64,000 bases of DNA from Squalus acanthias (Eukaryota): the NCBI GenBank assembly GCA_030390025.1, contig CM059432.1:50780001-50844000 (forward strand), written 5' to 3'. The position numbers were made by a program, and so were the translations under genes. Shown here piece after piece: positions 6,694-47,487 of this stretch. The number at the start of each line of letters is the position of its first letter. Position 1 is the first letter of the stretch. A model generated the notes under the pieces. It did no database searches and was not told the DNA's origin. It saw only the letters and a list, made by a program, of their open reading frames with translations.

Positions 6694-7211
6694 ATTCTCT
6701 TTGCCATAAAAGTAATGAGGTACAGCAACTAAAGTAGCAACAAAGTTAGGATGAATAGGCAAAACTACCTCACAAAGCGTTGAGTCAATGTAGAAGTCTC
6801 TCTCTCTCTCTCTCAGAACGAGTGGTGCATAAATGTCGACCACAGAAAAAGACAGGAAGAGGCCCCCTTTAAATAGCGCCCCCCCCAGCCCCACACCGAT
6901 TGATAACGTTCCAGTCTTCCGGTCGTTGGAAGCGCCAGGCGGTAAGGCAGGGGGCGCCACTCAATTTCCGCTCCGGGGCGCCCCAAGGGCGTTGCACCAT
7001 GGAATGACGTCACAATCTGCGCGCGCAGGTGGTCGCAGCGGTAAGTTTTAGCGCCGCCGCACAATCTCAAGTTAAGTTCTCGAGCGGCGCAAACAGCGCT
7101 GCGCCCGGGCGTTAGCGGCTTAACGCCCCATTAGCGCCCTCTTAAGGCGCTAATGGGAGGCGCAACCAAGTGAATTTTTACCCCAAAGCCTTCAGGCTTG
7201 TTTTTTTAACA

Positions 7212-13655: not shown

Positions 13656-13659
13656 CTGT

Positions 13660-13992
13660 ATATTGCACTGTCCAGTCTGCGTCACTCGCTCACCGCAGCT
13701 CCTGACCCACACCGACACCCAGTCGCCTGTGTCAATTCCGAGTCTGGATTCCCGGATCATCCAGGCGGACGCGGTAAGAAGCCGCCGCGACGGGCTCACC
13801 TCTCTCAGGCCGCTGTTTAATCGCTTCCCCTGTGGACTCGTCATTCCGCCGCCTCCGCCGCCGCCTGCACAAACCCGACACTCAGACCGAAACCGAAAGG
13901 CAAAACAAAAGCGTCATCACGTAGCACGCAGCCGAGCTCGTTCCACCAAACTCGCAACTCCTGATTGAGCAAACACGGAAAAAATAGCACCC
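13660..13992 (-). promoter_or_regulatory. CpG-rich island: putative promoter and 5' UTR of a host gene
   Basis: CpG-dense non-repetitive sequence. GGC-repeat leader (GGCGGCGGCGGAGGCGGCGGA) before an ATG. CRE-like TGACGC and TACGTGA at ~13911-13924. ETS-like CGGAA at ~13976. Confidence 0.7.
13800..13844 (-). CDS. Putative first coding exon (MTSPQGKRLNSGLRE) of an unidentified host gene
   Basis: ATG at 13844 with G at -3, 15 codons, then a consensus donor GAG|GTGAGC (GT at 13799-13798). No downstream exon was recognised in the window. Confidence 0.6.
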
Positions 13993-16900
13993 AGCACGTG
14001 ACACTAGTAGCATGGGTAACGTGACACAAGTAGCATGGTGCACGTGACACAAGAGGCATGGTGCACGTGATACAAGAAGCATGGTGCACATGACTAGTAA
14101 CATGGTGCACATTCCACGAGAAAAAAGGTCATGTGACACAAGTAACGTGGTGCACGTGACACAAGTAGCATGGGGCACGTGACACTAGTAACGGTGCAAG
14201 TGACAGTAGTAACATGGTGCACATGACACAGGAAGCTTGGTGCACGTGGCACAAGACGTGCACGTGACACAAGTAGCATGGTGCACATGACACGAGAAGC
14301 ATGGTGTACGTGACACAAGAAGCATGGTGTACGTGACAAAAGAAGTATGGTGCACGTGACACAAGAAGCATGGTGTACGTGACACAAGAAGCATGGTGTA
14401 CGTGACACAAGTAGCATGGTGTACGTGACACAAGAAGCATGGTGTATGTGACACAAGTACCATGGTGTACGTGACACAAGTAGCATGGTGCACGTGACAC
14501 AAGAAGCATGGTGCACGTGACACAAGAAGCATGGTGCACTTGACACAAGAAGCATGGTGCACAAGACAAAAGAAGCATGGTGCACGTGACACAAGTAACA
14601 TGGAGCACGTGACACAAGTAGCATGGTGTACGTGACTCAAGTAGCATGGTGTACGTGACACAAGTAGCATGGTGCACGTGACACAAGTAACATGGGGTAC
14701 GTGACACAAGTAGCATGGTGTACGTGACACAAGTAGCATGGTGTACGTGACACAAGTAGCATGGTGTATGTGACACAAGTAGCATGGTGCAGGTGAGACA
14801 AGTAGCATGGTGTACGTGACACAAGATGCATGGTGCACATGACTAGTAACATGGTGCACATTCCACGAGAAAAAAGGTCATGTGACACAAGTAACATGGT
14901 GCACGTGACACAAGTAGCATGGGGCACGTGACACTAGTAACATGGTGCAAGTGACAGTAGTAACATGGTGCACGTGACACAGGAAGCATGGTGCACGTGG
15001 CACAAGTCGTGCATGTGACACAAGTAGCATGGTGCACATGACGCGAGAAGCATGGTGCACGTGACACAAGTAGCATGGTGCACGTGACACAAGAAGCATG
15101 GTGTATGTGACACAAGAAGCATGGTGCACGTGACACCAGAAGCATGGTGTACGTGACACAACTAGCATGGTGTACGTGATACAAAAAGCATGGTGCACGT
15201 GACACAAGTAACATGGAGCACGTGACACAAGTAGCATGGTGTACGTGACTCAAGTAGCATGGTGCACGTGACACAAGTAACATGGTGCACGTGACACAAG
15301 TAGCATGGTGTATGTGACACAAGTAGCATGGTGCACGTGACACAAGTAACATGGGGTACGTGACACAAGTAGCATGGTGCAGGTGACACAAGTAGCATGG
15401 TGCACGTGACACAAGTAGCATGGTGTACGTGACACAAGAAGGATGATGCACGTGACACAAGAAGCATGGTGCAAGTGACACAAGTAGCATGGTGTACGTG
15501 ACACAAGTAGCATGGTGTACGTGACACAAGTAGCATGGTGCAGGTGAGACAAGTAGCATGGTGTACGTGACACAAGAAGCATGGTGCACGTGACACAAGT
15601 AGCATGGTGTACGTGACACAAGAAGCATGGAGCACGTGACACAAGTAGCATGGTGTACGTGTCACAAGAAGCATGGTGCACGTGACACAAGAAGCATGGT
15701 GCAAGTGACACAAGTAGCATGGTGTACGTGACACAAGTAGCATGGTGTACGTGACACAAGTAGCATGGTGCACGTGACACAAGTAGCATGGTGCACGTGA
15801 CACAAGAAGCATGGTCCACATGACACAAGAAGCATGGTGCACATGACTAGTAACATGGTGCACATTCCACGAGAAAAAAGGTCCTGTGACACAAGTATCA
15901 TGGTGCACGTGACACAAGTAGCATGGGGCACGTGACACTAGTAACATGGTGCAAGTGACAGTAGTAACATGGTGCACGTGACACAGGAAGCATGGTGCAC
16001 GTGGCACAAGACGTGCATGTGACACAAGTAGCATGGTGCACATGACACGAGAAGCATGGTGCACGTGACACAAGTAGCATGGTGCACGTGACACAGGAAG
16101 CATGGTGTACGTGACACAAGTAGCATGGTGCACATGACACAAGTAGTATGGTGCACGTGACACCAGAAGCATCGTGTAAGTAACACAAGAAGCATGGTGC
16201 ATGTGACACCAGAAGCATTTTGCATGTGACACAAGTAGCATGGTGCATGTGACACAAGTAGCATAGTGTACGTGACTCAAGTAGCATGGTGTACGTGACA
16301 CAAGTAGCATGGTGTACGTGACACAAGTAGCATGGTGTACATGACACAAGTAGCATGGTGTACATGACACAAGTAGCATGGTGTATGTGACACAAGTAGC
16401 ATGGTGTACGTGACACAAGTAGCATGGTGTACGTGACAAAATTAACATGGTGCACATGACACAAGTAGCATGGTGTACGTGACACAGGTAGCATGGTATA
16501 CGTGACACAAGTAGCATGGGTTAGGTGACACAAGTAGCATGGTGTACGTGACACAAGTAGCATGGTGCACGTGGCACAAGAAGCATGGTGCACCTGACAC
16601 AACTAGCATGGTGCACGTGGCAGAAGAAGCATGGTGCACCTGACACAAGTAGCATGGTGCATGTGACACAAGAAGCATGGTGCACCTGACACAAGTAGCC
16701 TGGTGAACGTGGCACAAGAAGCATGGTGCACGTGACACAAGTAGCATGGTGTATGTGACACAAGTAGTATGTTGCACGTGACACAAGAATCATGGTGCAC
16801 GTGTCACAAGAAGCATGGTGCACGTGGTACAAGAAGCATGGTGTAGGTGACACAAGTAGCATGGTGCAAGTGACACAAGAAGCATGGTGCACGTGACATA

Positions 16901-19900
16901 ATAAGCATGGTGTAAGTAACACAAGAAGCATGGTGTACGTGACACAAGAATCATGGTGCATATGACACCAGAAGCATTATGCATGTGACACAAGTAGCAT
17001 GGAGCACGCGACACAAGAAGCAAGGTGCACATGACACAAGAAGCATTTTGCACATGACACAAGAAGCATGGTGCACGTGACACAAGTAGCATGGCATGCA
17101 TGACACAAGTATCATGGTGTATGTGACACAAGTAGCATGGTGTATGTGACACAAGTAACATGGTGTACGTGACACAAGTAGCATGGTGCACGTGACACAA
17201 GTAGCATGGTGCACGTGACACAAGAAGCATGGTGCACGTGACAGAAGAAGCATGGTGCACGCGACACAAAAAGCTTGGTGCACTTGATACAAGTAGCATG
17301 GTGTACGTGACACAAGTAGCATGGTGTACGTGACACAAGTAGCATGGTGTACGTGACACAAGAAGCATGGTTAACGTGACACAAGTAGCATGGTGTACGT
17401 GACACAAGTAGCATGGTGCAGGTGACACAAGTAGCATGGTGCACGTGACACAAGTAGCATGGTGTACGTGACACAAGTAGCATGGTGTACGTGACACAAG
17501 TAGCATGGTGTATGTGACACAATAGCATGGTGCACGTGGCACAAGAAGCATGGTGCACGTGGCACAAGAAGCATGTTGCACGTGACACAAGAAGCATGGT
17601 GCACGTGGCACAAGAAGCATGGTGCACGTGACAGAAGAAGCATGGTGCACGCGACACAAAAAGCTTGGTGCACTTGATACAAGTAGCATGGTGTATGTGA
17701 CACAAGTAGCATGGTGTACGTGACAGAAGTAGCATGGTGTACGTGACACAAGAAGCATGGTTAACGTGACACAAGTAGCATGGCATACGTGACACAAGTA
17801 GCATGGTGCAGGTGACACAAGTAGCATGGTGCACGTGACACAAGTAGCATGGTGTACGTGACACAAGTAGCATGGTGCACATGACACAAGTAGCATGGAG
17901 CACATGACACAAGTAGCATGGTGCACGTGACACAAGAAGCATGGTGCACGTGGCACAAGAAGCATGTTGCACGTGACACAAGAAGCATGGTGCATGTGGC
18001 ACAAGAAGCATGGTGCACGTGACACAAGTAGCATGGTGTATGTGACACAAGTAGTATGTTGCACGTGACATAAGAATCATGGTGCACGTGACACAAGAAG
18101 CACGGTGCACATGACACAAGAAGCATGGTGCACGTGACACAAGAATCATGGTGCACGTGTCACAAGAAGCATGGTGCACGTGACACAAGTAGCATGGTGC
18201 AAGTGACACGAGAAGCATGGTGCACGTGACATAATAAGCATGGTGTAAGTAACACAAGAAGCATGGTGTACGTGACACAAGAATCATGGTGCATATGACA
18301 CCAGAAGCATTATGCATGTGACACAAGTAGCATGGTGTACGTGACACAAGTAGCATGGTGCACATGACACAAGAAGCATTTTGCACCTGACACAACTAGC
18401 ATGGTGCACGTGACACAAGTAGCATGGCATGCATGACACAAGTATCATGGTGTATGTGACACAAGTAGCATGGTGTATGTGACACAAGTAACATGGTGTA
18501 CGTGACACAAGTAGCATGGTGCACGTGACACAAGTAGCATGGTGCACGTGACACAAGAAGCATGGTGCACGTGACAGAAGAAGCATGGTGCACGCGACAC
18601 AAAAAGCTTGGTGCACTTGATACAAGTAGCATGGTGTATGTGACACAAGTAGCATGGTGTACGTGACACAAGTAGCATGGTGTACGTGACACAAGAAGCA
18701 TGGTTAACGTGACACAAGTAGCATGGCATACGTGACACAAGTAGCATGGTGCAGGTGACACAAGTAGCATGGTGCACGTGACACAAGTAGCATGGTGTAC
18801 GTGACACAAGTAGCATGGTGTACGTGACACAAGTAGCATGGTGTATGTGACACAATAGCATGGTGCACGTGGCACAAGTAGCATGGTGCACGTGGCACAA
18901 GTAGCATGGTGCATGTGGCACAAGAAGCATGTTGCACGTGACACAAGAAGCATGTTGCACGTGACACAAGAAGCATGGTGCACGTGACACAAGAAGCATG
19001 GTGCAAGTCACACAAGAAGCATGTTGTACGTGACATAAGCAACATGGTGCCCGTGACACAAGAAGCATGGTGCAAGTCACACAAGTAGCATGGAGCACGT
19101 GACAGTAGTAACATGGTGCCCGTGACACAAGAAGCATGGTGTACGTGACACAAGTAGCATGACGTACGTGACACAAGTAGCATGGTGTACATGACACAAG
19201 TAGCATGGTGCACATGACACAAGTAGCATGGAGCACATGACACAGGTAGCATGGTGCACGTGACACAAGTAGCATGGTGCACATGACACAAGAAGCATGG
19301 TGCACGTGGCACAAGAAGCATGTTGCACGTGACACAAGAAGCATGGTGCATGTGGCACAAGAAGCATGGTGCACGTGACACAAGTAGCATGGTGTATGTG
19401 ACACAAGTAGTATGTTGCACGTGACATAAGAATCATGGTGCACGTGACACAAGAAGCACGGTGCACATGACACAAGAAGCATGGTGCACGTGACACAAGA
19501 ATCATGGTGCACGTGTCACAAGAAGCATGGTGCACGTGGTACAAGAAGCATGGTGTAGGTGACACAAGTAGCATGGTGCAAGTGACACAAGAAGCATGGT
19601 GTACGTGACACAAGAATCATGGTGCATATGACACCAGAAGCATTATGCATGTGACACAAGTAGCATGGAGCACGCGACACAAGAAGCAAGGTGCACATGA
19701 CACAAGAAGCATTTTGCACATGACACAAGAAGCATGGTGCACGTGACACAAGTAGCATGGCATGCATGACACAAGTATCATGGTGTATGTGACACAAGTA
19801 GCATGGTGTATGTGACACAAGTAACATGGTGTACGTGACACAAGTAGCATGGTGCACGTGACACAAGTAGCATGGTGCACGTGACACAAGAAGCATGGTG

Positions 19901-22900
19901 CACGTGACAGAAGAAGCATGGTGCACGCGACACAAAAAGCTTGGTGCACTTGATACAAGTGGCATGGTGTATGTGACACAAGTAGCATGGTGTACGTGAC
20001 AGAAGTAGCATGGTGTACGTGACACAAGAAGCATGGTTAACGTGACACAAGTAGCATGGCATACGTGACACAAGTAGCATGGTGCAGGTGACACAAGTAG
20101 CATGGTGCACGTGACACAAGTAGCATGGTGTACGTGACACAAGTAGCATGGTGTACGTGACACAAGTAGCATGGTGTATGTGACACAATAGCATGGTGCA
20201 CGTGGCACAAGAAGCATGGTGCACGTGGCACAAGTAGCATGGTGCATGTGGCACAAGAAGCATGTTGCACGTGACACAAGAAGCATGTTGCACGTGACAC
20301 AAGAAGCATGGTGCACGTGACACAAGAAGCATGGTGCAAGTCACACAAGAAGCATGTTGTACGTGACATAAGCAACATGGTGCCCATGACACAAGAAGCA
20401 TGGTGCAAGTCACACAAGTAGCATGGAGCACGTGACAGTAGTAACATGGTGCTCGTGACACAAGAAGCATGGTGTACGTGACACAAGTAGCATGACGTAC
20501 GTGACACAAGTAGCATGGTGTACATGACACAAGTAGCATGGTGCACATGACACAAGTAGCATGGAGCACATGACACAGGTAGCATGGTGCACGTGACACA
20601 AGTAGCATGGTGTACGTGGCACAAGAAGCATGTTGCACGTGACACAAGAAGCATGGTGCATGTGGCACAAGAAGCATGGTGCACGTGACACAAGTAGCAT
20701 GGTGTATGTGACACAAGTAGTATGTTGCACGTGACATAAGAATCATGGTGCACGTGACACAAGAAGCACGGTGCACATGACACAAGAAGCATGGTGCACG
20801 TGACACAAGAATCATGGTGCACGTGTCACAAGAAGCATGGTGCACGTGGTACAAGAAGCATGGTGTAGGTGACACAAGTAGCATGGTGCAAGTGACACAA
20901 GAAGCATGGTGCACGTGACATAATAAGCATGGTGTAAGTAACACAAGAAGCATGGTGTACGTGACACAAGAATCATGGTGCATATGACACCAGAAGCATT
21001 ATGCATGTGACACAAGTAGCATGGAGCACGCGACACAAGAAGCAAGGTGCACATGACACAAGAAGCATTTTGCACATGACACAAGAAGCATGGTGCACGT
21101 GACACAAGTAGCATGGCATGCATGACACAAGTATCATGGTGTATGTGACACAAGTATCATGGTGTATGTGACACAAGTAACATGGTGTACGTGACACAAG
21201 AAGCATGGTGCACGTGACACAAGTAGCATGGCATGCATGACACAAGTATCATGGTGTATGTGACACAAGTAGCATGGTGTATGTGACACAAGTAACATGG
21301 TGTACGTGACACAAGTAGCATGGTGCACGTGACACAAGTAGCATGGTGCACGTGACACAAGAAGCATGGTGCACGTGACAGAAGAAGCATGGTGCACGCG
21401 ACACAAAAAGCTTGGTGCACTTGATACAAATAGCATGGTGTATGTGACACAAGTAGCATGGTGTACGTGACAGAAGTAGCATGGTGTACGTGACACAAGA
21501 AGCATGGTTAACGTGACACAAGTAGCATGGCATACGTGACACAAGTAGCATGGTGCAGGTGACACAAGTAGCATGGTGCACGTGACACAAGTAGCATGGT
21601 GTACGTGACACAAGTAGCATGGTGTACGTGACACAAGTAGCATGGTGTATGTGACACAATAGCATGGTGCACGTGGCACAAGAAGCATGGTGCACGTGGC
21701 ACAAGTAGCATGGTGCATGTGGCACAAGAAGCATGTTGCACGTGACACAAGAAGCATGTTGCACGTGACACAAGAAGCATGGTGCACGTGACACAAGAAG
21801 CATGGTGCAAGTCACACAAGAAGCATGTTGTACGTGACATAAGCAACATGGTACCCGTGACACAAGAAGCATGGTGCAAGTCACACAAGTAGCATGGAGC
21901 ACGTGACAGTAGTAACATGGTGCCCGTGACACAAGAAGCATGGTGTACGTGACACAAGTAGCATGACGTACGTGACACAAGTAGCATGGTGTACATGACA
22001 CAAGTAGCATGGTGCACATGACACAAGTAGCATGGAGCACATGACACAGGTAGCATGGTGCACGTGACACAAGTAGCATGGTGCACATGACACAAGAAGC
22101 ATGGGTTAGGTGACACAAGTAGCATGGTGTACGTGACACAAGTAGCATGGTGCACGTGGCACAAGAAGCATGGTGCACCTGACACAACTAGCATGGTGCA
22201 CGTGGCAGAAGAAGCATGGTGCACCTGACACAAGTAGCATGTTGCATGTGACACAAGAAGCATGGTGCACCTGACACAAGTAGCCTGGTGAACGTGGCAC
22301 AAGAAGCATGGTGCACGTGACACAAGTAGCATGGTGTATGTGACACAAGTAGTATGTTGCACGTGACATAAGAATCATGGTGCACGTGACACAAGAAGCA
22401 CGGTGCACATGACACAAGAAGCATGGTGCACGTGACATAAGAATCATGGTGCACGTGTCACAAGAAGCATGGTGCACGTGGTACAAGAAGCATAGTGTAG
22501 GTGACACAAGTAGCATGGTGCAAGTGACACAAGAAGCATGGTGCACGTGACATAATAAGCATGGTGTAAGTAACACAAGAAGCATGGTGTACGTGACACA
22601 AGAATCATGGTGCATATGACACCAGAAGCATTATGCATGTGACACAAGTGGCATGGAGCACGCGACACAAGAAGCAAGGTGCACATGACACAAGAAGCAT
22701 GGTGCACGTGACACAAGTAGCATGGCATGCATGACACAAGTATCATGGTGTATGTGACACAAGTATCATGGTGTATGTGACACAAGTAGCATGGTGTATG
22801 TGACACAAGTAACATGGTGTACGTGACACAAGTAGCATGGTGCACGTGACACAAGTAGCATGGTGCACGTGACACAAGAAGCATGGTGCACGTGACAGAA

Positions 22901-25900
22901 GAAGCATGGTGCACGCGACACAAAAAGCTTGGTGCACTTGATACAAGTAGCATGGTGTATGTGACACAAGTAGCATGGTGTACGTGACACAAGTAGCATG
23001 GTGTACGTGACACAAGAAGCATGGTTAACGTGACACAAGTAGCATGGCATACGTGACACAAGTAGCATGGTGCATGTGGCACAAGAAGCATGTTGCACGT
23101 GACACAAGAAGCATGTTGCACGTGACACAAGAAGCATGGTGCACGTGACACAAGAAGCATGGTGCAAGTCACACAAGAAGCATGTTGTACGTGACATAAG
23201 CAACATGGTGCCCGTGACACAAGAAGCATGGTGCAAGTCACACAAGTAGCATGGACCACGTGACAGTAGTAACATGGTGCCCGTGACACAAGAAGCATGG
23301 TGTACGTGACACAAGTAGCATGACGTACGTGACACAAGTAGCATGGTGTACATGACACAAGTAGCATGGTGCACATGACACAAGTAGCATGGAGCACATG
23401 ACACAGGTAGCATGGTGCACGTGACACAAGTAGCATGGTGCACATGACACAAGAAGCATGGTGCACGTGGCACAAGAAGCATGTTGCACGTGACACAAGA
23501 AGCATGGTGCATGTGGCACAAGAAGCATGGTGCACGTGACACAGGTAGCATGGAGCATGTGACACTAGTAGCATAGTGCACGCGACACAAGTAGCATGGG
23601 GAACATGACACAAGAAGCATGGTGCACGTGACACAAGTAGCATGGTGCATGTGACACAAGTAGCATGGAGCACGTGACACAAGAAGCATGGTGCACGTGA
23701 CACAAGTAGCATGGTGCACATGACACAAGAAGCATGGTGCAAGTCACACAAGAAGCATGGGGCACGTGACACAAGTAGCATGGTGCACATGACACAAGTA
23801 GCATGACGTACGTGACACAAGAAGCATGGTGCACATGACACAAGAAGCATGGTGCACATCACACAAGAAGCATGGTGCACATGACACAAGAAGCATGGTG
23901 CACGTGGCACAAGAAGCATGGATGTACGTGACACAAGTAGCATTTTGCACGTGACACAAGAATCATGGTGCATGCGACACAAGAAACATGGCGCACGTGA
24001 CACAAGAAACATGGCACACGTGACACAAGTAGCATGGTGCACGTGACACAAGTAGCATGGTGCACGTGACACAAGTAGCATGGTGCACGTGGCACAAGAA
24101 GCATGTTGCACGTGACACAAGAAGCATGGTGCATGTGGCACAAGTAGCATGGAGCATGTGACACGAGTAGCATGGTGCACGCGACACAAGAAACATGGCG
24201 CACATGACACAAGAAGCATGGTGCACGTGACACAAGTAGCATGGTGCACGTGACACAAGTAGCATGGTGCACGTGGCACAAGAAGCATGGATGTACGTGA
24301 CACAAGTAGCATTTTGCATGTGATACAAGAAACATGGTGCACGTGACACAAGAAGCATCGTGTAAGTAACACAAGAAGCATGGTGCATGTGACACCAGAA
24401 GCATTTTGCATGTGACACAAGTAGCATGGTGCATGTGACACAAGTAGCATAGTGTACGTGACTCAAGTAGCATGGTGTACGTGACACAAGTAGCATGGTG
24501 TACGTGACACAAGTAGCATGGTGTACGTGACAAAAGTAACATGGTGCACATGACACAAGTAGCATGGTGTACGTGACACAAGTAGCATGGTGTACGTGAC
24601 ACAAGTAGCATGGTGTACGTGACACAAGTAGCATGGTGTACGTGACACAAGTAGCATGGTGTACGTGACACAAGTAGCATGGTGTATGTGACAAAAGTAA
24701 CATGGTGCACATGACACAAGTAGCATGGTGTACGTGACACAAGTAGCATGGTGTAGGTGACACAAGTAGCATGGTACACGTGACACAAATAGCATGGTGC
24801 ACGTGGCACAAGAAGCATGGTGCACCTGACACAAATAGCATGGTGCACGTGACAGAAGAAGCATGGTGCACCTGACACAAGTAGCATGGTGAACGTGGCA
24901 CAAGAAGCATTTTGCACATGACACAAGAAGCATGGCGCACGTGACACAAGTAGCATGGCATGCGTGACACAAGTATCATGGTGTATGTGACACAAGTAGC
25001 ATGGTGTATGTGACACAAGTAGCATGGTGCACGTGACACAAGTAGCATGGTGCACGTGACACAAGTAGCATGGTGCACGTGACACAAGAAACATGATGTA
25101 CGTGACACAATTAGCATTTTGCACGTGGCAAAAGAAGCATGGTGCACATGACACAAGAAGCATGGTGCAAGTGACACAAGAAACATGGCACACGTGACAC
25201 AAGTAGCATGGTGCACGTGGCACAAGAAGCATGTTGCACGTGACACAAGAAGCATGGTGCACGTGACACAAGAAGCATGGTGCAAGTCACACAAGAAGCA
25301 TGTTGCACGTGACATAAGCAACATGGTGCCCATGACACAAGAAACATGGTGCAAGTCACACAAGAAGCATGGAGCACGTGACAGTAGTAACATGGTGCCC
25401 GTGACACAAGAAGCATGGTGTACGTGACACAAGTGGCATGACATACGTGACACAAGTAACATGGTGTACGTGACTCAAGTAACATGATGTACGTGACACA
25501 AGTACCATGGTGTACATGACACAAGTAGCATGGTGCACATGACACAAGTAGCATGGAGCACATGACACAGGTAGCATGGTGCACGTGACACAAGTAGCAT
25601 AGTGCACATGACACAAGAAGCATGGTGCACGTGGCACAAGAAGCATGTTGCACGTGACACAAGAAGCATGGTGCATGTGGCACAAGAAGCATGGTGCATG
25701 TGACACAGGTAGCATGGAGCATGTGACACTAGTAGCATGGTGCACGCGACACAAGTAGCATGGTGCATGTGACACAAGAAGCATGGTGCAAGTCACACAA
25801 GAAGCGTGGTGCACGTGACACAAGTAGCATGGTGTACGTGACACAAGTAGCATGATGTACGTGACACAAGTAACATGGTGTACGTGACTCAAGTAACATG

Positions 25901-28900
25901 ATGTACGTGACACAAGTAACATGGTGTACGTGACTCAAGTAACATGATGTACGTGACACAATTAGCATTTTGCACGTGACACAAGAAGCATGGTGCACGT
26001 GACACAAGTAGCATGGTGTATGTTACACAAGAAACATGGCTCACATGACACAAGAAGCATGGTGCACGTGACACAAGAAGCATGGTGCACATGACACAAG
26101 AAACATGGTGCCCGTGACACAAGAAGCATGGTGCACGTGACACAAGTAGCATGACGTACGTGACACAAGTAACATGGTGTACGTGACTCAAGTAACGTGA
26201 TGTACGTGACACAATTAGCATTTTGCACGTGACACAAGAAACATGGCTCACATGACACAAGAAGCATGGTGCACGTGACACAAGAAGCATGGTGCACATG
26301 ACACAAGAAACATGGTGCACGTGGCACAAGAAGCATGGATGTACGTGACACAGGTAGCATTTTGCACGTGACACAAGAAGCATGGTGCACGTGGCACAAG
26401 AAGCATGTTGCACGTGACACAAGCAGCATGGTGCATGTGGCACAAGAAGCATGGTGCACGTGACACAACAAGCATGGTGCATGTGACACAAGTAGCTTGG
26501 TGCACGTGGCACAACAAGCATGGTGCATATGACACAAGAAACATGGCGCACGTGACACAAGTAGCATGGTGCACGTGGCACAAGAAGCATGTTGCACGTG
26601 ACACAAGAAGCATGTTGCACGTGACACAAGAAGCATGGTGCACATGACACAAGAAGCATGGTGCACGTGGCACAAGAAGCATGTTGCACGTGACACAAGA
26701 AGCATGTTGCACGTGACACAAGAAGCATGGTGCACATGACACAAGAAGCATGTTGCACGTGACACAAGTAGCATGGTGCACGTGGCACAAGAAGCATGTT
26801 GCACGTGACGCAAGAAGCATGTTGCACGTGACACAAGAAACATGGTGCACGTGACACAAGAAGCATGGTGCAAGTCACACAAGAAACATGTTGCACGTGA
26901 CATAAGCAACATGGTGCCCGTGACACAAGAAGCATGGTGCAAGTCACACAAGAAGCATGGAGCACGTGACAGTAGTAACATGGTGCCCGTGACACAAGAA
27001 GCATGGTGTACGTGACACAAGTAGCATGACGTACGTGACACAAGTAACATGGTGTACGTGACTCAAGTAACATGGTGCACGTGACACAATTAGCATTTTG
27101 CACGTGACACAAGAAGCATGGTGCACGTGACACAAGTAGCATGGTGTATGTGACACAAGAAACATGGCTCACATGACACAAGAAGCATGGTGCACGTGAC
27201 ACAAGAAGCATGGTGCACATGACACAAGAAACATGGTGCCCGTGACACAAGAAGCATGGTGCACGTGACACAAGTAGCATGACGTACGTGACACAAGTAA
27301 CATGGTGTACGTGACTCAAGTAACATGATGTACGTGACACAATTAGCATTTTGCACGTGACACAAGAAGCATGGTGCACGTGACACAAGTAGCATGGTGT
27401 ATGTGACACAAGAAAAATGGCTCACATGACACAAGAAGCATGGTGCACGTGACACAAGAAGCATCGTGCACATGACACAAGAAACATGGTGCACGTGGCA
27501 CAAGAAGCATGGATGTACGTGACACAAGTAGCATTTTGCACGTGACACAAGAAGCATGGTGCACGTGGCACAAGAAGCATGTTGCACGTGACACAAGCAG
27601 CATGGTGCATGTGGCACAAGAAGCATGGTGCACGTGACACAACAAGCATGGTGCATGTGACACAAGTATCATGGTGCACGTGGCACAACAAGCATGGTGC
27701 ATATGACACAAGAAACATGGCGCACGTGACACAAGTAGCATGGTGCACGTGGCACAAGAAGCATGTTGCACGTGACACAAGAAGCATGTTGCACGTGACA
27801 CAAGAAGCATGTTGCACGTGACACAAGAAGCATGGTGCACATGACACAAGAAGCATGGTGCACGTGGCACAAGAAGCATGTTGCACGTGACACAAGAAGC
27901 ATGTTGCACGTGACACAAGAAGCATGGTGCACATGACACAAGAAGCATGTTGCACGTGACACAAGTAGCATGGTGCACGTGGCACAAGAAGCATGTTGCA
28001 CGTGATGCAAGAAGCATGTTGCACGTGACACAAGAAACATGGTGCACGTGACACAAGAAGCATGGTGCAAGTCACACAAGAAACATGTTGCACGTGACAT
28101 AAGCAACATGGTGCCCGTGACACAAGAAGCATGGTGCAAGTCACACAAGAAGCATGGAGCACGTGACAGTAGTAACATGGTGCCCGTGACACAAGAAGCA
28201 TGGTGTACGTGACACAAGAAGCATGGTGTACGTGACACAAGTAGCATGACGTACGTGACACAAGTAACATGGTGTACGTGACTCAAGTAACATGGTGTAC
28301 GTGACTCAAGTAACATGATGTACATGACACAAGTAGCATGGTGCACATGACACAAGTAGCATGGAGCACATGACACAGGTAGCATGGTGCACGTGACACA
28401 AGTAGCATGGTGTACGTGACACAAGTAGCATGGTGCACATGACACAAGAAGCATGGTGCACGTGGCACAAGAAGCATGTTGCACGTGACACAAGAAGCAT
28501 GGTGCATGTGGCACAAGAAGCATGGTGCACGTGACACAGGTAGAATGGAGCATGTGACACTAGTAGCATGGTGCACATGACACAAGAAGCATGGTGCACG
28601 TGACACAAATAGCATGGTGCACATGACACAAGAAGCATGGTGCACGTGACACAAGTAGCATGGTGCACGTGACACAAGTAGCATGGAGCACGTGACACAA
28701 GAAGCTTGGTGCACGTGACACAAGTAGCATGGTGAACATAATACAAGAAGCATGGTGCAAGTCATACAAGAAGCATGGAGCACGTGACAGTAGTAACATG
28801 GTGCCCGTGACACAAGAAGCATGGTGTACGTGACACAAGTAGCATGACGTACGTGACACGAGTAACATGGTGTACATGACACAAGTAGCATGGTGCATGT

Positions 28901-34900: not shown

Positions 34901-37900
34901 CACACAAGAAGCATGGTGCACATGACACAAGAAGCATGGTGCACGTGGCACAAGAAGCATGGATGTACGTGACACAAGTAGCATTTTGCACGTGACACAA
35001 GAATCATGGTGCATGCGACACAAGAAACATGGCGCACGTGACACAAGAAACATGGCACACGTGACACAAGTAGCATGGTGCACGTGACACAAGTAGCATG
35101 GTGCACGTGACACAAGTAGCATGGTGCACGTGGCACAAGAAGCATGTTGCACGTGACACAAGAAGCATGGTGCATGTGGCACAAGTAGCATGGAGCATGT
35201 GACACGAGTAGCATGGTGCACGCGACACAAGAAACATGGCGCACATGACACAAGAAGCATGGTGCACGTGACACAAGTAGCATGGTGCACGTGACACAAG
35301 TAGCATGGTGCACGTGGCACAAGAAGCATGGATGTACGTGACACAAGTAGCATTTTGCATGTGATACAAGAAACATGGTGCACGTGACACAAGAAGCATC
35401 GTGTAAGTAACACAAGAAGCATGGTGCATGTGACACCAGAAGCATTTTGCATGTGACACAAGTAGCATGGTGCATGTGACACAAGTAGCATAGTGTACGT
35501 GACTCAAGTAGCATGGTGTACGTGACACAAGTAGCATGGTGTACGTGACACAAGTAGCATGGTGTACGTGACAAAAGTAACATGGTGCACATGACACAAG
35601 TAGCATGGTGTACGTGACACAAGTAGCATGGTGTACGTGACACAAGTAGCATGGTGTACGTGACACAAGTAGCATGGTGTACGTGACACAAGTAGCATGG
35701 TGTACGTGACACAAGTAGCATGGTGTATGTGACAAAAGTAACATGGTGCACATGACACAAGTAGCATGGTGTACGTGACACAAGTAGCATGGTGTAGGTG
35801 ACACAAGTAGCATGGTACACGTGACACAAATAGCATGGTGCACGTGGCACAAGAAGCATGGTGCACCTGACACAAATAGCATGGTGCACGTGACAGAAGA
35901 AGCATGGTGCACCTGACACAAGTAGCATGGTGAACGTGGCACAAGAAGCATTTTGCACATGACACAAGAAGCATGGCGCACGTGACACAAGTAGCATGGC
36001 ATGCGTGACACAAGTATCATGGTGTATGTGACACAAGTAGCATGGTGTATGTGACACAAGTAGCATGGTGCACGTGACACAAGTAGCATGGTGCACGTGA
36101 CACAAGTAGCATGGTGCACGTGACACAAGAAACATGATGTACGTGACACAATTAGCATTTTGCACGTGGCAAAAGAAGCATGGTGCACATGACACAAGAA
36201 GCATGGTGCAAGTGACACAAGAAACATGGCACACGTGACACAAGTAGCATGGTGCACGTGGCACAAGAAGCATGTTGCACGTGACACAAGAAGCATGGTG
36301 CACGTGACACAAGAAGCATGGTGCAAGTCACACAAGAAGCATGTTGCACGTGACATAAGCAACATGGTGCCCATGACACAAGAAACATGGTGCAAGTCAC
36401 ACAAGAAGCATGGAGCACGTGACAGTAGTAACATGGTGCCCGTGACACAAGAAGCATGGTGTACGTGACACAAGTGGCATGACATACGTGACACAAGTAA
36501 CATGGTGTACGTGACTCAAGTAACATGATGTACGTGACACAAGTACCATGGTGTACATGACACAAGTAGCATGGTGCACATGACACAAGTAGCATGGAGC
36601 ACATGACACAGGTAGCATGGTGCACGTGACACAAGTAGCATAGTGCACATGACACAAGAAGCATGGTGCACGTGGCACAAGAAGCATGTTGCACGTGACA
36701 CAAGAAGCATGGTGCATGTGGCACAAGAAGCATGGTGCATGTGACACAGGTAGCATGGAGCATGTGACACTAGTAGCATGGTGCACGCGACACAAGTAGC
36801 ATGGTGCATGTGACACAAGAAGCATGGTGCAAGTCACACAAGAAGCGTGGTGCACGTGACACAAGTAGCATGGTGTACGTGACACAAGTAGCATGATGTA
36901 CGTGACACAAGTAACATGGTGTACGTGACTCAAGTAACATGATGTACGTGACACAAGTAACATGGTGTACGTGACTCAAGTAACATGATGTACGTGACAC
37001 AATTAGCATTTTGCACGTGACACAAGAAGCATGGTGCACGTGACACAAGTAGCATGGTGTATGTTACACAAGAAACATGGCTCACATGACACAAGAAGCA
37101 TGGTGCACGTGACACAAGAAGCATGGTGCACATGACACAAGAAACATGGTGCCCGTGACACAAGAAGCATGGTGCACGTGACACAAGTAGCATGACGTAC
37201 GTGACACAAGTAACATGGTGTACGTGACTCAAGTAACGTGATGTACGTGACACAATTAGCATTTTGCACGTGACACAAGAAACATGGCTCACATGACACA
37301 AGAAGCATGGTGCACGTGACACAAGAAGCATGGTGCACATGACACAAGAAACATGGTGCACGTGGCACAAGAAGCATGGATGTACGTGACACAGGTAGCA
37401 TTTTGCACGTGACACAAGAAGCATGGTGCACGTGGCACAAGAAGCATGTTGCACGTGACACAAGCAGCATGGTGCATGTGGCACAAGAAGCATGGTGCAC
37501 GTGACACAACAAGCATGGTGCATGTGACACAAGTAGCTTGGTGCACGTGGCACAACAAGCATGGTGCATATGACACAAGAAACATGGCGCACGTGACACA
37601 AGTAGCATGGTGCACGTGGCACAAGAAGCATGTTGCACGTGACACAAGAAGCATGTTGCACGTGACACAAGAAGCATGGTGCACATGACACAAGAAGCAT
37701 GGTGCACGTGGCACAAGAAGCATGTTGCACGTGACACAAGAAGCATGTTGCACGTGACACAAGAAGCATGGTGCACATGACACAAGAAGCATGTTGCACG
37801 TGACACAAGTAGCATGGTGCACGTGGCACAAGAAGCATGTTGCACGTGACGCAAGAAGCATGTTGCACGTGACACAAGAAACATGGTGCACGTGACACAA

Positions 37901-40900
37901 GAAGCATGGTGCAAGTCACACAAGAAACATGTTGCACGTGACATAAGCAACATGGTGCCCGTGACACAAGAAGCATGGTGCAAGTCACACAAGAAGCATG
38001 GAGCACGTGACAGTAGTAACATGGTGCCCGTGACACAAGAAGCATGGTGTACGTGACACAAGTAGCATGACGTACGTGACACAAGTAACATGGTGTACGT
38101 GACTCAAGTAACATGGTGCACGTGACACAATTAGCATTTTGCACGTGACACAAGAAGCATGGTGCACGTGACACAAGTAGCATGGTGTATGTGACACAAG
38201 AAACATGGCTCACATGACACAAGAAGCATGGTGCACGTGACACAAGAAGCATGGTGCACATGACACAAGAAACATGGTGCCCGTGACACAAGAAGCATGG
38301 TGCACGTGACACAAGTAGCATGACGTACGTGACACAAGTAACATGGTGTACGTGACTCAAGTAACATGATGTACGTGACACAATTAGCATTTTGCACGTG
38401 ACACAAGAAGCATGGTGCACGTGACACAAGTAGCATGGTGTATGTGACACAAGAAAAATGGCTCACATGACACAAGAAGCATGGTGCACGTGACACAAGA
38501 AGCATCGTGCACATGACACAAGAAACATGGTGCACGTGGCACAAGAAGCATGGATGTACGTGACACAAGTAGCATTTTGCACGTGACACAAGAAGCATGG
38601 TGCACGTGGCACAAGAAGCATGTTGCACGTGACACAAGCAGCATGGTGCATGTGGCACAAGAAGCATGGTGCACGTGACACAACAAGCATGGTGCATGTG
38701 ACACAAGTATCATGGTGCACGTGGCACAACAAGCATGGTGCATATGACACAAGAAACATGGCGCACGTGACACAAGTAGCATGGTGCACGTGGCACAAGA
38801 AGCATGTTGCACGTGACACAAGAAGCATGTTGCACGTGACACAAGAAGCATGTTGCACGTGACACAAGAAGCATGGTGCACATGACACAAGAAGCATGGT
38901 GCACGTGGCACAAGAAGCATGTTGCACGTGACACAAGAAGCATGTTGCACGTGACACAAGAAGCATGGTGCACATGACACAAGAAGCATGTTGCACGTGA
39001 CACAAGTAGCATGGTGCACGTGGCACAAGAAGCATGTTGCACGTGATGCAAGAAGCATGTTGCACGTGACACAAGAAACATGGTGCACGTGACACAAGAA
39101 GCATGGTGCAAGTCACACAAGAAACATGTTGCACGTGACATAAGCAACATGGTGCCCGTGACACAAGAAGCATGGTGCAAGTCACACAAGAAGCATGGAG
39201 CACGTGACAGTAGTAACATGGTGCCCGTGACACAAGAAGCATGGTGTACGTGACACAAGAAGCATGGTGTACGTGACACAAGTAGCATGACGTACGTGAC
39301 ACAAGTAACATGGTGTACGTGACTCAAGTAACATGGTGTACGTGACTCAAGTAACATGATGTACATGACACAAGTAGCATGGTGCACATGACACAAGTAG
39401 CATGGAGCACATGACACAGGTAGCATGGTGCACGTGACACAAGTAGCATGGTGTACGTGACACAAGTAGCATGGTGCACATGACACAAGAAGCATGGTGC
39501 ACGTGGCACAAGAAGCATGTTGCACGTGACACAAGAAGCATGGTGCATGTGGCACAAGAAGCATGGTGCACGTGACACAGGTAGAATGGAGCATGTGACA
39601 CTAGTAGCATGGTGCACATGACACAAGAAGCATGGTGCACGTGACACAAATAGCATGGTGCACATGACACAAGAAGCATGGTGCACGTGACACAAGTAGC
39701 ATGGTGCACGTGACACAAGTAGCATGGAGCACGTGACACAAGAAGCTTGGTGCACGTGACACAAGTAGCATGGTGAACATAATACAAGAAGCATGGTGCA
39801 AGTCATACAAGAAGCATGGAGCACGTGACAGTAGTAACATGGTGCCCGTGACACAAGAAGCATGGTGTACGTGACACAAGTAGCATGACGTACGTGACAC
39901 GAGTAACATGGTGTACATGACACAAGTAGCATGGTGCATGTGACACAGGAAGCATGGTGCACGTGACACAAGAAGCATGGTGCACATGACACAAGAAGCA
40001 TGGCGCACATGACACAAGTAGCATGGAGCACGTGACACAAGTAACATGGTGCACGTGACACAAGAAGCATGGTGCACATGACACAAGAAGCATGGTGCAC
40101 GTGACACAAGAAGCATGGTGCACATGACACAGGTAACATGGTGCACGTGACACAAGAAGCATGGTGTACGTGACACAAGTAGCATGACGTACGTGACACA
40201 AGTAACATGGTGTACGTGACTCAAGTAACATGATGTACGTGACACAAGTAGCATGGTGTACATGACACAAGTAGCATGGTGCACATGACACAAGTAGCAT
40301 GGAGCACATGACATAGGTAGCATGGTGCACGTGACACAAGTAGCATGGTGCACATGACACAGGTAGCATGGTGCACGTGACACAAGTAGCATGGTGCACA
40401 TGACACAAGAAGCATGGTGCATGTGGCACAAGAAGCATGGTGCACGTGACACAGGTAGCATGGAGCATGTGTCACTAGTAGCATGGTGCACGCGACACAA
40501 GAAGCATGGTGCACGTGACACAAATAGCGGTGCACATGACACAAGAAGCATGGTGCACGTGACACAAGTAGCATGGTGCATGCGACACAAGTAGCATGGA
40601 GCACGTGACACAAGTAACATGGTGCACGTGACACAAGAAGCATGGTGCACATGACACAAGAAGCATGGTGCACGTGACACAAGTAGCATGGTGCACGTGA
40701 CACAAGTAACATGGTGCACGTGACACAAGAAGCATGGTGCACATGACACAAGAAGCATGGTGCACGTGACACAAGAAGCATGGTGCACATGACACAGGCA
40801 ACATGGTGCACGTGACACAAGAAGCATGGTGCACGTGGCACAAGAAGCATGGATGTACGTGACAAAAGTAGCATTTTGCACGTGACACAAGAAGCATGGT

Positions 40901-43900
40901 GCATGCGACACAAGAAACATGGCTCACATGACACAAGAAGCATGGTACACATGACACAAGAAGCATGGTGCACGTGACACAGGTAGCATGGAGCATGTGA
41001 CACTAGTAGCATGGTGCACACGACACAAGAAGCATGGTGCACGTGACACAAATAGCATGGTGCACATGACACTAGAAGCATGGTGCACGTGACACAAGTA
41101 GCATGGTGCACGTGACACAAGTAACATGGAGCACGTGACACAAGAAGCGTGGTGCACGTGACACAAGTAGCATGGTGAACATGACACAAGAAGCATGGTG
41201 CAAGTCACACAAGAAGCATGGAGCACGTGACAGTAGTAACATGGTGCCCGTGACACAAGAAGCATGGTGTACGTGACACAAGTAGCATGACGTACGTGAC
41301 ACAAGTAACATGGTGTACGTGACTCAAGTAACATGATGTACATGACACAAGTAGCATGGTGCATGTGACACAGGAAGCATGGTGCACGTGACACAAGTAG
41401 CATGGAGCACGTAACACAAGTAACATGGTGCACGTGACACAAGAAGCATGGCGCACGTGACACAAGTAGCATGGAGCACGTGACACAAGTAACATGGTGC
41501 ACGTGACACAAGAAGCATGGTGCACATGACACAAGAAGCATGGTGCACGTGACACAAGAAGCATGGTGCACATGACACAGGTAACATGGTGCACGTGACA
41601 CAAGAAGCATGGTGTACGTGACACAAGTAGCATGACGTACGTGACATAAGTAACATGGTGTACGTGACACAAGTAGCATGGTGTACATGACACAAGTAGC
41701 ATGGTGCACATGACACAAGTAGCATGGAGCACATGACACAGGTAGCATGGTGCACGTGACACAAGTAGCATGGTGCACATGACACAAGAAGCATGGTGCA
41801 CGTGGCACAAGAAGCATGGTGCACGTGACACAAGAAGCATGGTGCATGTGGCACAAGAAGCATGGTGCACGTGACACAGGTAGCATGGAGCATGTGACAC
41901 TAGTAGCATGGTGCACGCGACACAAGAAGCATGGTGCACGTGACACAAATAGCATGGTGCACATGACACAAGAAGCATGGTGCACGTGACACAAGTAGCA
42001 TGGTGCATGCGACACAAGTAGCATGGAGCACGTGACACAAGTAACATGGTGCACGTGACACAAGAAGCATGGTGCACATGACACAAGAAGCATGGTGCAC
42101 GTGACACAAGAAGCATGGTGCACATGACACAGGCAACATGGTGCACGTGACACAAGAAGCATGGTACACATGACACAAGAAGTATGGTGCACGTGACACA
42201 GGTAGCATGGAGCATGTGACACTAGTAGCATGGTGCACACGACACAAGAAGCATGGTGCACGTGACACAAATAGCATGGTGCACATGACACTAGAAGCAT
42301 GGTGCACGTGACACAAGTAGCATGGTGCACGTGACACAAGTAACATGGAGCACGTGACACAAGAAGCGTGGTGCACGTGACACAAGTAGCATGGTGAACA
42401 TGACACAAGAAGCATGGTGCAAGTCACACAAGAAGCATGGAGCACGTGACAGTAGTAACATGGTGCCCGTGACACAAGAAGCATGGTGTACGTGACACAA
42501 GTAGCATGACGTACGTGACACAAGTAACATGGTGTACGTGACTCAAGTAACATGATGTACATGACACAAGTAGCATGGTGTATGTGACACAGGAAGCATG
42601 GTGCACGTGACACAAGTAGCATGGAGCACGTAACACAAGTAACATGGTGCACGTGACACAAGAAGCATGGCGCACGTGACACAAGTAGCATGGAGCACGT
42701 GACACAAGTAACATGGTGCACGTGACACAAGAAGCATGGTGCACATGACACAGGCAACATGGTGCACGTGACACAAGAAGCATGGTACACATGACACAAG
42801 AAGTATGGTGCACGTGACACAGGTAGCATGGAGCATGTGACACTAGTAGCATGGTGCACACGACACAAGAAGCATGGTGCACGTGACATAAATAGCATGG
42901 TGCACATGACACTAGAAGCATGGTGCACGTGACACAAGTAGCATGGTGCACGTGACACAAGTAACATGGAGCACGTGACACAAGAAGCGTGGTGCACGTG
43001 ACACAAGTAGCATGGTGAACATGACACAAGAAGCATGGTGCAAGTCACACAAGAAGCATGGAGCACGTGACAGTAGTAACATGGTGCCCGTGACACAAGA
43101 AGCATGGTGTACGTGACACAAGTAGCATGACGTACGTGACACAAGTAACATGGTGTACGTGACTCAAGTAACATGATGTACATGACACAAGTAGCATGGT
43201 GTATGTGACACAGGAAGCATGGTGCACGTGACACAAGTAGCATGGAGCACGTAACACAAGTAACATGGTGCACGTGACACAAGAAGCATGGCGCACGTGA
43301 CACAAGTAGCATGGAGCACGTGACACAAGTAACATGGTGCACGTGACACAAGAAGCATGGTGCACATGACACAAGAAGCATGGTGCACGTGACACAAGAA
43401 GCATGGTGCACATGACACAGGTAACATGGTGCACGTGACACAAGAAGCATGGTGTACGTGACACAAGTAGCATGACGTACGTGACATAAGTAACATGGTG
43501 TACGTGACACAAGTAGCATGGTGTACATGACACAAGTAGCATGGTGCACATGACACAATTAGCATGGAGCACATGACACAGGCAACATGGTGCACGTGAC
43601 ACAAGAAGCATGGTACACATGACACAAGAAGTATGGTGCACGTGACACAGGTAGCATGGAGCATGTGACACTAGTAGCATGGTGCACACGACACAAGAAG
43701 CATGGTGCACGTGACACAAATAGCATGGTGCACATGACACTAGAAGCATGGTGCACGTGACACAAGTAGCATGGTGCACGTGACACAAGTAACATGGAGC
43801 ACGTGACACAAGAAGCGTGGTGCACGTGACACAAGTAGCATGGTGAACATGACACAAGAAGCATGGTGCAAGTCACACAAGAAGCATGGAGCACGTGACA

Positions 43901-46900: not shown

Positions 46901-47487
46901 ATGGTGCACATGACACAAGGACCATGGTGCACATGACACAAGTAGCATGGTGCACGCGACACAAGAAACATGGTGCACGTGACACAAGAAGCATGGTGCA
47001 CGCGACACAAGAAACATGGCGCACGTGACACAAGAAGCATGGTGTACGTGACACAAGAAGCATGGTGCACGCGACACAAGTAGCATGGTGCACGCGACAC
47101 AAGTAGCATGGTGCACGCGACACAGGACACATGGCGCACATGACACAAGTAGCATGGTGCACGTGACACAAGTAGCATGGTGCATGTGACACAAGTAGCA
47201 TGGTGCACATGACACAAGAAGTGCACATGACACAAATTTAATTGTGCACGTGACACGAAGCATGGTGCACGTGGCACAAGTAGCATGGTGCACGTGACAC
47301 AAGTAGCATGGTGCATGTGACACAAGAAGCATGGTGCACGTGACACTAGTAGCATGGTGCATGTGACACAAGTAGCATGGTGCATGTGACACAAGTAGCA
47401 TGGTGCACATGACACAAGAAGTGCACATGACACAAATTTAATTGTGCACGTGACACGAAGCATGGTGCATGTGACACAAGAAGTGCA
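13993..47487. repeat. 23-bp satellite array, ~33.5 kb, ~1,450 monomers, with higher-order repeats
   Basis: Consensus GTGACACAAGWAGCATGGTGYAC. No insertions of foreign sequence were seen. Periods were read from offsets between identical ORF translations. Confidence 0.99.

What the first reader, a model, noticed from the sequence alone, without database searches (positions are those of the whole stretch)
13993..47487. 33-kb promoter-abutting satellite built from bHLH binding sites (E-box, M-box and HRE variants)
Seen: the 23-bp monomer junction is usually GCACGTGAC (minus strand GTCACGTGC). The main variants are GCACATGAC (minus GTCATGTGC), CATGTGAC and TACGTGAC. The first copy lies ~150 bp from the putative ATG. 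Known: GTCACGTG is the USF/TFEB-CLEAR core, GTCATGTG the MITF M-box core, TACGTG the HIF response core and CACGTG the MYC/MAX and CLOCK/BMAL1 E-box. Inference: the array may have amplified from a promoter E-box into on the order of a thousand sites. It could act as a copy-number-tunable enhancer or a transcription-factor sink gated by CpG methylation, since the CpG-decayed variants remain E-boxes. There is no functional evidence in the sequence.
Basis: partly seen in the sequence, partly recalled or inferred. Interest (0 to 1): 0.72.

Follow-up and report, generated by a model that had tools for sequence, protein, structure and literature searches.

The report
Giant E-box minisatellite at shark promoter
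A 33-kb run of about 1,450 copies of a 23-base unit, most carrying an E-box-type binding motif, begins 150 bases before the start codon of an intact shark ubiquitin-ligase gene and is shared with related sharks, but its motifs decay faster than the rest of the unit, so it is likely a methylated repeat grown from the promoter edge rather than a thousand-site gene switch.

Summary
There are 1,458 monomers at 13994-47480: 571 with CACGTG, 290 CATGTG-type, 259 TACGTG. The array is single-locus: all 830 forward genome hits of a 20-mer lie in the window. The ATG at 13844 is real: it is exon 1 of an intact, spliced UEV-NID-RBR (HOIP-like) E3 gene. Two related organisms have the array at the same promoter junction, 5.6% diverged.

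The enhancer/sink reading is not supported. The hexamer varies twice as much as the spacer. CpG transitions run 4-fold in excess, which points to germline methylation. There is no gradient toward the promoter, and every transition of CACGTG yields another 'known' motif anyway. Minisatellites fill 18 of 60 control windows, and smaller unrelated E-box arrays exist elsewhere.

Best reading: an old minisatellite copied from the promoter edge and amplified by block duplication; at most the first copies act as a normal proximal E-box. An ISRE-like site at 13889 is a better candidate driver. The scan had noted similar motif-bearing arrays at other promoters of this genome, but none here.

The parts
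13994..47480 (+). 23-bp minisatellite-type array, 1,458 monomers, GC 48.7%, CpG o/e 0.55; single locus in the assembly
13995..14000 (.). First, promoter-proximal CACGTG (GTCACGTG on the gene strand); no substitution listed here in organisms B and C
   Evidence: sequence
13971..13993 (+). In-phase 23 bp before the first copy, 11 of 23 identical to the consensus: possible seed or decayed monomer
   Evidence: weak
14107..15882 (+). Three copies (14107, 14856, 15860) of an edge-specific A-run monomer variant; letters of the same kind appear at the promoter edge of the array in organisms B and C
   Evidence: table 4
22680..30456 (+). Copy A of an 11,041-bp-offset internal duplication (2 mismatches in 7,777 bp)
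33721..41497 (+). Copy B of that duplication; very recent or an assembly join, not resolved
13800..13844 (-). Coding part of exon 1 (15 codons, GT donor at 13799) of a UEV-NID/RRM-RBR E3 ligase gene whose other exons lie left of the window (C8:50,711,785-50,770,872)
13845..13962 (-). 5' leader covered by spliced contigs: to 13877 and 13874 in organism A, to 13962 in organism D (contigs cannot fix a start site)
13889..13899 (+). ISRE-like GAAACCGAAAG, the only match of the stricter pattern in the window (consensus recalled); no substitution listed in organisms B, C, D, E
13912..13923 (.). Half-CRE (CGTCA) next to a single-copy TACGTG in the unique promoter
   Evidence: motif names recalled
13601..13993 (.). 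Short CpG island holding exon 1, between the two arrays
12594..13653 (+). Unrelated 40-bp minisatellite in intron 1, promoter-side block; locus-specific (9 of 9 genome hits of a 31-mer are in the window); present in organisms B and C
9585..10939 (+). Second block of the 40-bp minisatellite
10940..12594 (.). 1,655-bp solo-LTR-like insertion (TGTAA...TTACA ends, CCCC on both sides) splitting the 40-bp array
   Evidence: class inferred from the ends only

Best explanation
This is a single-locus 23-bp minisatellite, shared with related sharks, that likely began as a tandem copy of the E-box-bearing edge of this gene's promoter, grew to 33 kb through repeated block duplications, and is likely methylated and mostly inert, with at most the first few copies predicted to act as an ordinary proximal E-box. 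Shown: single locus, position, nested near-identical blocks (offsets 828 to 15,000 bp at 96-100% identity), presence at the same junction in two related organisms, 4-fold CpG transition excess, motif not protected, gene intact and spliced. Inferred: origin from the promoter edge; unequal exchange as the engine; methylation in the germ line and, by extension, in tissues; methylation blocking USF/MYC/MiT binding (a USF2 case read in PMC8201134, the rest recalled); the gene being driven mainly by its own CpG island and ISRE-like site.
For: Single locus: 830 of 830 forward hits in the window, 1 elsewhere, equal to the control. Block duplications at 96-100% identity. CpG sites take 13 of 29 recent C/G transition events on 2 of 12 C/G positions, 4.1-fold, p = 3.6e-4. 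The most polymorphic position (15) gave only 3 of 65 events, so conversion from common alleles does not explain this. Hexamer variant rate 0.127 vs spacer 0.058; non-CpG hexamer sites 2.0 recent events per site vs spacer 2.6. No CpG or motif gradient toward the promoter. An unrelated 40-bp array without E-boxes flanks the other side of exon 1, is equally locus-specific and is also present in organisms B and C, so persistence needs no motif function. 18 of 60 control windows hold a minisatellite, including arrays of at least 9.5 kb and 6.5 kb. 9 of 14 fetched triple-E-box loci are unrelated arrays of 155-1,406 bp. The SEH1L and RAB35 first exons are also sandwiched between unrelated arrays.
Against: The first E-box lies only about 30-120 bp beyond the 5' ends of the spliced contigs, where GTCACGTG sites normally work (recalled). 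63% or so of monomers still keep the CpG, and CpG o/e is 0.55 against 0.40 in the flanks. Hexamer variants are more often transitions than spacer variants (156 of 205 vs 174 of 315 over types), which could be a weak preference for motif-keeping changes, though three alleles dominate the count. The array has lasted across 5.6% divergence. The edge similarity is weak (p = 0.043), and promoter enrichment of minisatellites was not shown against a matched control (5 of 10 vs 18 of 60, p = 0.19). Mutation spectra report on the germ line, not on tissues.
Confidence: 0.65

Rival explanations
1. The array is a copy-number-tuned, methylation-gated enhancer or sink for bHLH-ZIP/PAS factors: when demethylated, it would bind many USF/MiT/HIF dimers and raise this gene's output or titrate them from other genes.
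For: 1,120 of 1,458 monomers carry one of three known cores. 478 GTCACGTG sites may be about 1% of the genome's 8-mers (4 in 410.5 kb of flank, a very rough estimate). The position is at the promoter. Precedents: the TYMS repeat E-box (PMC11155610, passages) and satellite decoys (PMC3322331, passages).
Against: The motif decays faster than the spacer, and CpGs mutate 4-fold faster. No gradient. The 571 CACGTG are about 0.1% of an estimated 5e5 genome-wide (55 in 410.5 kb). The spacing is 17 bp, not the 6-7 bp that CLOCK:BMAL1 tandem sites need (PMC12424780, passages). No full CLEAR palindrome.
Confidence: 0.12
2. The array works as a methylated heterochromatin block that would keep basal expression of this E3 ligase low and shield it from upstream enhancers, while the ISRE-like site would allow induction by interferon; the E-box is incidental.
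For: Germline methylation signature. A 33-kb block directly upstream of a CpG island of about 400 bp. ISRE-like site unchanged in four other organisms. The gene carries an NID domain, typical of interferon-induced NMI/IFP35 (recalled).
Against: Spliced contigs exist in organisms A and D, so the gene is not shut off in those samples. No sign of selection on length or sequence. The promoter as a whole is about 95% conserved, so an unchanged 11-mer is not remarkable.
Confidence: 0.13
3. The unit did not come from a functional promoter element: an ordinary minisatellite arose here by chance in a repeat-rich genome and happens to contain CACGTGAC, so even the first copy is unused.
For: Minisatellites are common (18 of 60 matched windows). 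E-box arrays occur at non-promoter sites, for example beside an internal exon or in transposon-rich sequence. Promoter enrichment was not shown.
Against: A random unit has CACGTGAC only 0.07% of the time. In the 410 kb around this locus only 5 of 131 windows hold a minisatellite, yet this exon has one on each side within 200 bp. Edge similarity, though weak.
Confidence: 0.1

Closest known systems
TYMS 28-bp promoter/5'UTR repeat with a USF-1 E-box (PMC11155610, passages seen, citing Mandola et al. 2003, not read)
   Same: Tandem unit at a gene start carrying an E-box; variant units lose the site
   Different: TYMS has a few units (the paper names a 3R allele) with a shown effect on transcription; here 1,458 units over 33 kb, a methylation signature and no binding data
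Human promoter minisatellite VNTRs with NF-kB, myc/HLH or Sp1 sites (PMC8096271, passages seen)
   Same: Single-locus minisatellite within 1 kb upstream of a gene, next to a CpG island, unit carrying a factor motif; the paper reports VNTR enrichment in such places
   Different: Far longer than such VNTRs usually are (recalled), with nested block duplications up to 11 kb; length polymorphism not shown here
Satellite decoys: mouse major satellite and C/EBP-alpha, Drosophila GAGAA satellite and GAGA factor, synthetic yeast arrays (PMC3322331, passages seen)
   Same: Long tandem array of factor motifs that could titrate a factor if accessible
   Different: Those natural cases are large pericentromeric satellites; this is one 33-kb locus holding about 0.1% of genomic CACGTG, and its CpG-containing motif is methylation-sensitive
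Tandem E-box elements of CLOCK:BMAL1 targets (PMC12424780, passages seen)
   Same: Repeated CACGTG near a promoter
   Different: Those need 6-7 bp spacing; here it is 17 bp
Other motif-bearing arrays at promoters of this same genome (SEH1L and RAB35 checked here)
   Same: Short CpG-island exon 1 between two unrelated minisatellites
   Different: Those arrays are 0.3-2 kb; this one is more than ten times longer

Membership tests
Single-locus minisatellite | Head-to-tail unit of about 10-100 bp | tested here: met
   23 bp, 1,421 of 1,458 units exact length
Single-locus minisatellite | Confined to one locus | tested here: met
   830 of 830 forward hits in the window; 1 reverse hit elsewhere, equal to the control
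VNTR | Copy number varies between alleles or individuals | tested here: inconclusive
   Near-identical internal blocks suggest turnover; contig depths are no copy number
Genome-wide centromeric or heterochromatic satellite family | Many loci or megabase arrays | tested here: not met
   flanks are ordinary transposon-rich sequence
Functional promoter VNTR (TYMS type) | Lies in the proximal promoter of an expressed gene | tested here: met
Functional promoter VNTR (TYMS type) | Motif preserved across units better than the spacer | tested here: not met
   0.127 vs 0.058 variants per site
Functional promoter VNTR (TYMS type) | Factor binds and expression follows copy number | not testable with these tools
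   needs CUT&RUN, reporters, allele-specific expression
CLEAR element | GTCACGTGAC palindrome (consensus recalled) | tested here: not met
   0 in the array; the 8-bp half-extended core occurs 478 times
CLOCK:BMAL1 tandem E-box | 6-7 bp between E-boxes | tested here: not met
   17 bp here; spacing rule from PMC12424780 passages
Decoy satellite | Holds a large share of the genome's sites | tested here: inconclusive
   about 0.1% of CACGTG, about 1% of the 8-mer on a 4-count estimate
Decoy satellite | Sites accessible and unmethylated in cells | not testable with these tools
   germline mutation spectrum points to methylation
HOIP/RNF31-like RBR E3 ligase (the gene) | RING1-IBR-RING2 plus RBR C-terminal (PF18091) domain and RING2 GGCxHF motif | tested here: met
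   Pfam on two homologues, exons mapped, motif intact (catalytic role recalled)
HOIP/RNF31-like RBR E3 ligase (the gene) | Canonical HOIP N-terminus (PUB, NZF, UBA; recalled) | tested here: not met
   The homologues carry UEV and NID/RRM instead

The most novel reading that the evidence does not exclude
An ancient, shark-lineage 33-kb array of about a thousand bHLH sites forms the upstream promoter of an interferon-type, HOIP-like ubiquitin ligase and acts as a methylation-gated switch: silent and methylated in most cells, but when demethylated it recruits USF/MiT-TFE/HIF in proportion to copy number. It would be the extreme case of a shark-wide habit of copying promoter motifs into flanking minisatellites, possibly because meiotic breaks default to promoters where PRDM9 is incomplete.
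Probability: 0.1. Interest if true: 0.75.

Novelty: new member of a known kind. Interest (0 to 1): 0.33.

Why it matters
As it most likely is, it shows how a promoter motif can be copied into a 33-kb block that sits about 100 bp from a working gene start and survives species splits without silencing the gene. It also warns that motif-rich satellites next to shark promoters are common and prove nothing by count. It is a convenient natural test of how a CpG island of about 400 bp resists methylation spreading from a large repeat. If the distal copies were bound, it would be by far the largest natural E-box enhancer or sink known to me (recalled, not established by search).

Tried and rejected
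1) Genome-wide or centromeric satellite: rejected.
2) Pure assembly artefact: rejected. Contigs of a run that may be the source span the promoter-array junction, and satellite contigs are present in another sample and three other organisms. Whether the 11-kb internal duplication is real stayed open. For four contigs that I matched by their loose ends, depth ratios were 9.1, 11.1, 4.3, 5.1, against assembly k-mer multiplicities of 8.1, 24.3, 7.1, 5.3 with the duplication and 6.1, 16.6, 6.1, 3.9 without it. Matching by unitig length failed.
3) My own idea that minisatellites are enriched at promoters in this genome: not shown. Of 46 Kozak-pattern hits, 30 were fetched. I kept the 10 with GC of at least 0.60 and dropped 20 (mostly one dispersed repeat; 1 of the 20 had an array). 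5 of 10 had a minisatellite within 1.5 kb, one of these probably transposon-internal. That is significant-looking against the local control (5 of 131) but not against matched flanks 20-30 kb away (18 of 60, p = 0.19). SF3A3 had none.
4) Adjacency of other E-box arrays to CpG-rich windows was mostly transposon sequence on reading; only L036 looked like a first exon, and its gene was not identified.
5) PRDM9 status: no SSXRD match over the cut-off among 42 candidates (best E 5.8); inconclusive.
6) A source element for the monomer or the right flank: none found. No cellular gene was recognised among long ORFs in the 196 kb to the right (short exons would be missed).
7) Satellite transcription: no listed holder is on record as RNA, and the three spliced-contig runs showed no contig on the first two monomers; no evidence either way.
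8) Literature: no paper for 'dkey-181m9.8', for satellite + E-box + CACGTG + tandem array + bHLH, or for minisatellite + elasmobranch + promoter. PMC11406177 passages concern Y-chromosome satellites only. The listing for RNF31/UEV/RBR showed nothing on this gene; those papers were not opened. Supplements were not read, and gene lists in them could name this gene as interferon-induced.
Full report
The observation. The array runs from 13994 to 47480 with period 23. It has 1,458 monomers at 90% mean identity, 1,421 of exact length. GCACGTGAC is the commonest core (471 of 1,458), followed by GTACGTGAC (235) and GCACATGAC (169). By hexamer there are 571 CACGTG, 290 CATGTG/CACATG, 259 TACGTG/CACGTA, 33 CACGCG-type, 61 other CANNTG and 244 none. 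The full GTCACGTGAC palindrome never occurs. The array is built of nested near-identical blocks, the largest a 7,777-bp pair at offset 11,041 with 2 mismatches. It is single-locus: a 20-mer with one mismatch allowed gives 830 forward hits in the 3.7-Gb genome, all 830 in the window, and one reverse hit elsewhere, equal to the control.

The gene. Contigs from runs X6 and X7 (organism A, one study) and X12 (organism D) stop at 13800 and continue in a sequence that occurs once in the genome, 23 kb away. The tool only guesses that these runs are RNA, but the splice shows it. A later exon matches the UEV domain. Its homologues are 842-943-aa proteins of sharks and a ray, at 64-91% identity, one named 'lubel' and one 'si:dkey-181m9.8' by their sources. 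They carry UEV, NID, PARP14-type RRM, IBR and RBR C-terminal domains. They map as about 23 exons over 82 kb, with residues 1-15 of P0002 at 13844-13800. One of the hits for two of the three queries has a stop, where the alignment runs past the exon into the intron. The RING2 motif is intact. Spliced contigs reach 13877 and 13874 in organism A and 13962 in organism D, so the first E-box (13995) is about 30-120 bp beyond them; contigs cannot fix a start site. The unique promoter has an ISRE-like GAAACCGAAAG at 13889, the only such match in the window, plus a half-CRE and one TACGTG (motif names recalled).

Age. In organisms B and C a single 458-base contig spans the 40-bp intronic repeat, the promoter and the first monomers, with 19 substitutions over 13657-13993 (5.6%), and many more contigs fall on the monomers. 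B and C show the same differences, so they count as one lineage. Organism E has the promoter piece and five monomer-like contigs but no bridge; another sample labelled organism A has 24 monomer-like contigs. Given slow shark substitution rates (recalled), the array is likely tens of millions of years old and renewed from within.

Is the motif maintained? No. Variants per site are 0.127 in the hexamer and 0.058 in the spacer over copies, and 0.154 vs 0.089 over distinct types. Single changes in otherwise identical three-monomer contexts give 65 recent events. CpG positions take 13 of the 29 C/G transitions on 2 of 12 positions, a 4.1-fold excess (p = 3.6e-4), while non-CpG hexamer sites change about as often as spacer sites (2.0 vs 2.6 per site). 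This is the mark of germline methylation (inferred), and methylation blocks USF2 binding in at least one documented case (PMC8201134, passages). CpG retention shows no gradient toward the promoter. That the decayed variants 'remain binding sites' is automatic, because all six transitions of CACGTG land in a named motif class. Against my reading: about 63% of monomers keep the CpG, CpG o/e is 0.55 vs 0.40 in the flanks, and hexamer variants are more often transitions than spacer variants (76% vs 55% over types).

Base rates. Triple-CACGTGAC runs occur 376 times genome-wide, against 9,258 for the reversed pattern. The first 100 listed hits include 14 other loci on C1-C8, and 9 of these 14 are unrelated arrays of 155-1,406 bp. 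One, L036, sits right before an ATG exon-like stretch. Following an earlier scan note, I confirmed that SEH1L exon 1 lies between a 42-bp and a 52-bp array, and found the same for RAB35; SF3A3 has none. I then tested promoter enrichment: 5 of 10 GC-rich Kozak sites have a minisatellite within 1.5 kb against 18 of 60 matched flank windows (p = 0.19), so enrichment is not shown. Around this locus the rate is only 5 of 131, which keeps a promoter-linked origin likely here. What remains unusual is the length together with the closeness to the start.

Origin and mechanism. The 23 bp in phase before the first copy match the consensus at 11 positions, and an A-run variant found only in the first 2 kb resembles that promoter stretch (p = 0.043); B and C show such letters at the same edge. 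I read this as tandem duplication at the promoter edge, then growth by unequal exchange, with methylation of the bulk (confidence 0.65). Promoter-directed meiotic breaks could drive such births. PMC5519329 (passages) reports recombination at promoters and CpG islands where PRDM9 is not functional, SSXRD missing in some cartilaginous fish, and no rapid zinc-finger evolution in the elephant shark. My SSXRD search was inconclusive, so this is only a lead. As a sink the array is small: 571 CACGTG against roughly 5e5 genome-wide, and 478 8-mers against roughly 3.6e4 on a 4-count estimate. The 17-bp spacing does not fit CLOCK:BMAL1 tandem sites (PMC12424780, passages).

Comparison and verdict. It works like, and is, a single-locus promoter-side minisatellite of the kind described in humans (PMC8096271, passages). 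It resembles the TYMS E-box repeat (PMC11155610, passages) and decoy satellites (PMC3322331, passages) in layout only; the functional features that define those were not met or could not be tested. Three targeted searches found no paper on this array or gene name; the library lacks most subscription papers. Earlier scan notes describe YY1-, CTCF- and PBX-motif arrays in this genome with similar verdicts (unchecked except SEH1L), and none near this place. New member of a known kind; interest 0.33. The bold reading, a methylation-gated thousand-site switch on an interferon-type E3 ligase, has probability about 0.1 and would deserve 0.75.

Noticed in passing
window 13844 leftward to G000:C8:50,711,785: The gene encodes a UEV-NID/RRM-RBR protein with HOIP-type C-terminal domain; homologues were found in five sharks and rays. 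It gave the only PF18091 matches in this genome among 10 candidates scored, so a canonical HOIP was not seen in that search.
   Followed up: partly
window 13889-13899: ISRE-like 11-mer just upstream of the ATG of an NID-domain gene; suggests an interferon-induced ubiquitin ligase (inferred).
   Followed up: partly
window 10940-12594: Solo-LTR-like 1,655-bp insertion with 4-bp flanking repeat inside the 40-bp intronic array; no other copy in the 444 kb fetched.
   Followed up: partly
L036:4918-6484 (G000:C3, about 120,920,300): Five GGTCACGTG units after a CCAAT-like site, directly before an ATG exon-like stretch, with a 54-bp array just behind it: a small version of the same layout; gene not identified.
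   Followed up: partly
L046:5146-7235 and L072/L117: SEH1L and RAB35 first exons each lie between two unrelated minisatellites.
   Followed up: yes
L119 (G000:C77:11474-17372): 5.9-kb 33-bp array ending about 770 bp before a GC-rich Kozak ATG, with another array behind the exon.
   Followed up: no
L105:546-10000 (G000:C16): 21-bp array of at least 9.5 kb about 20-30 kb from the SF3A3 start.
   Followed up: no
window about 3000-7200: Harbinger-like element with both ORF types (class recalled from the sequence, not searched); similar copies lie to the right of the window.
   Followed up: no
G000:C10:53,470,427-53,509,621: Two tandem UEV-domain genes, probably TSG101 and UEVLD (names recalled).
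   Followed up: no
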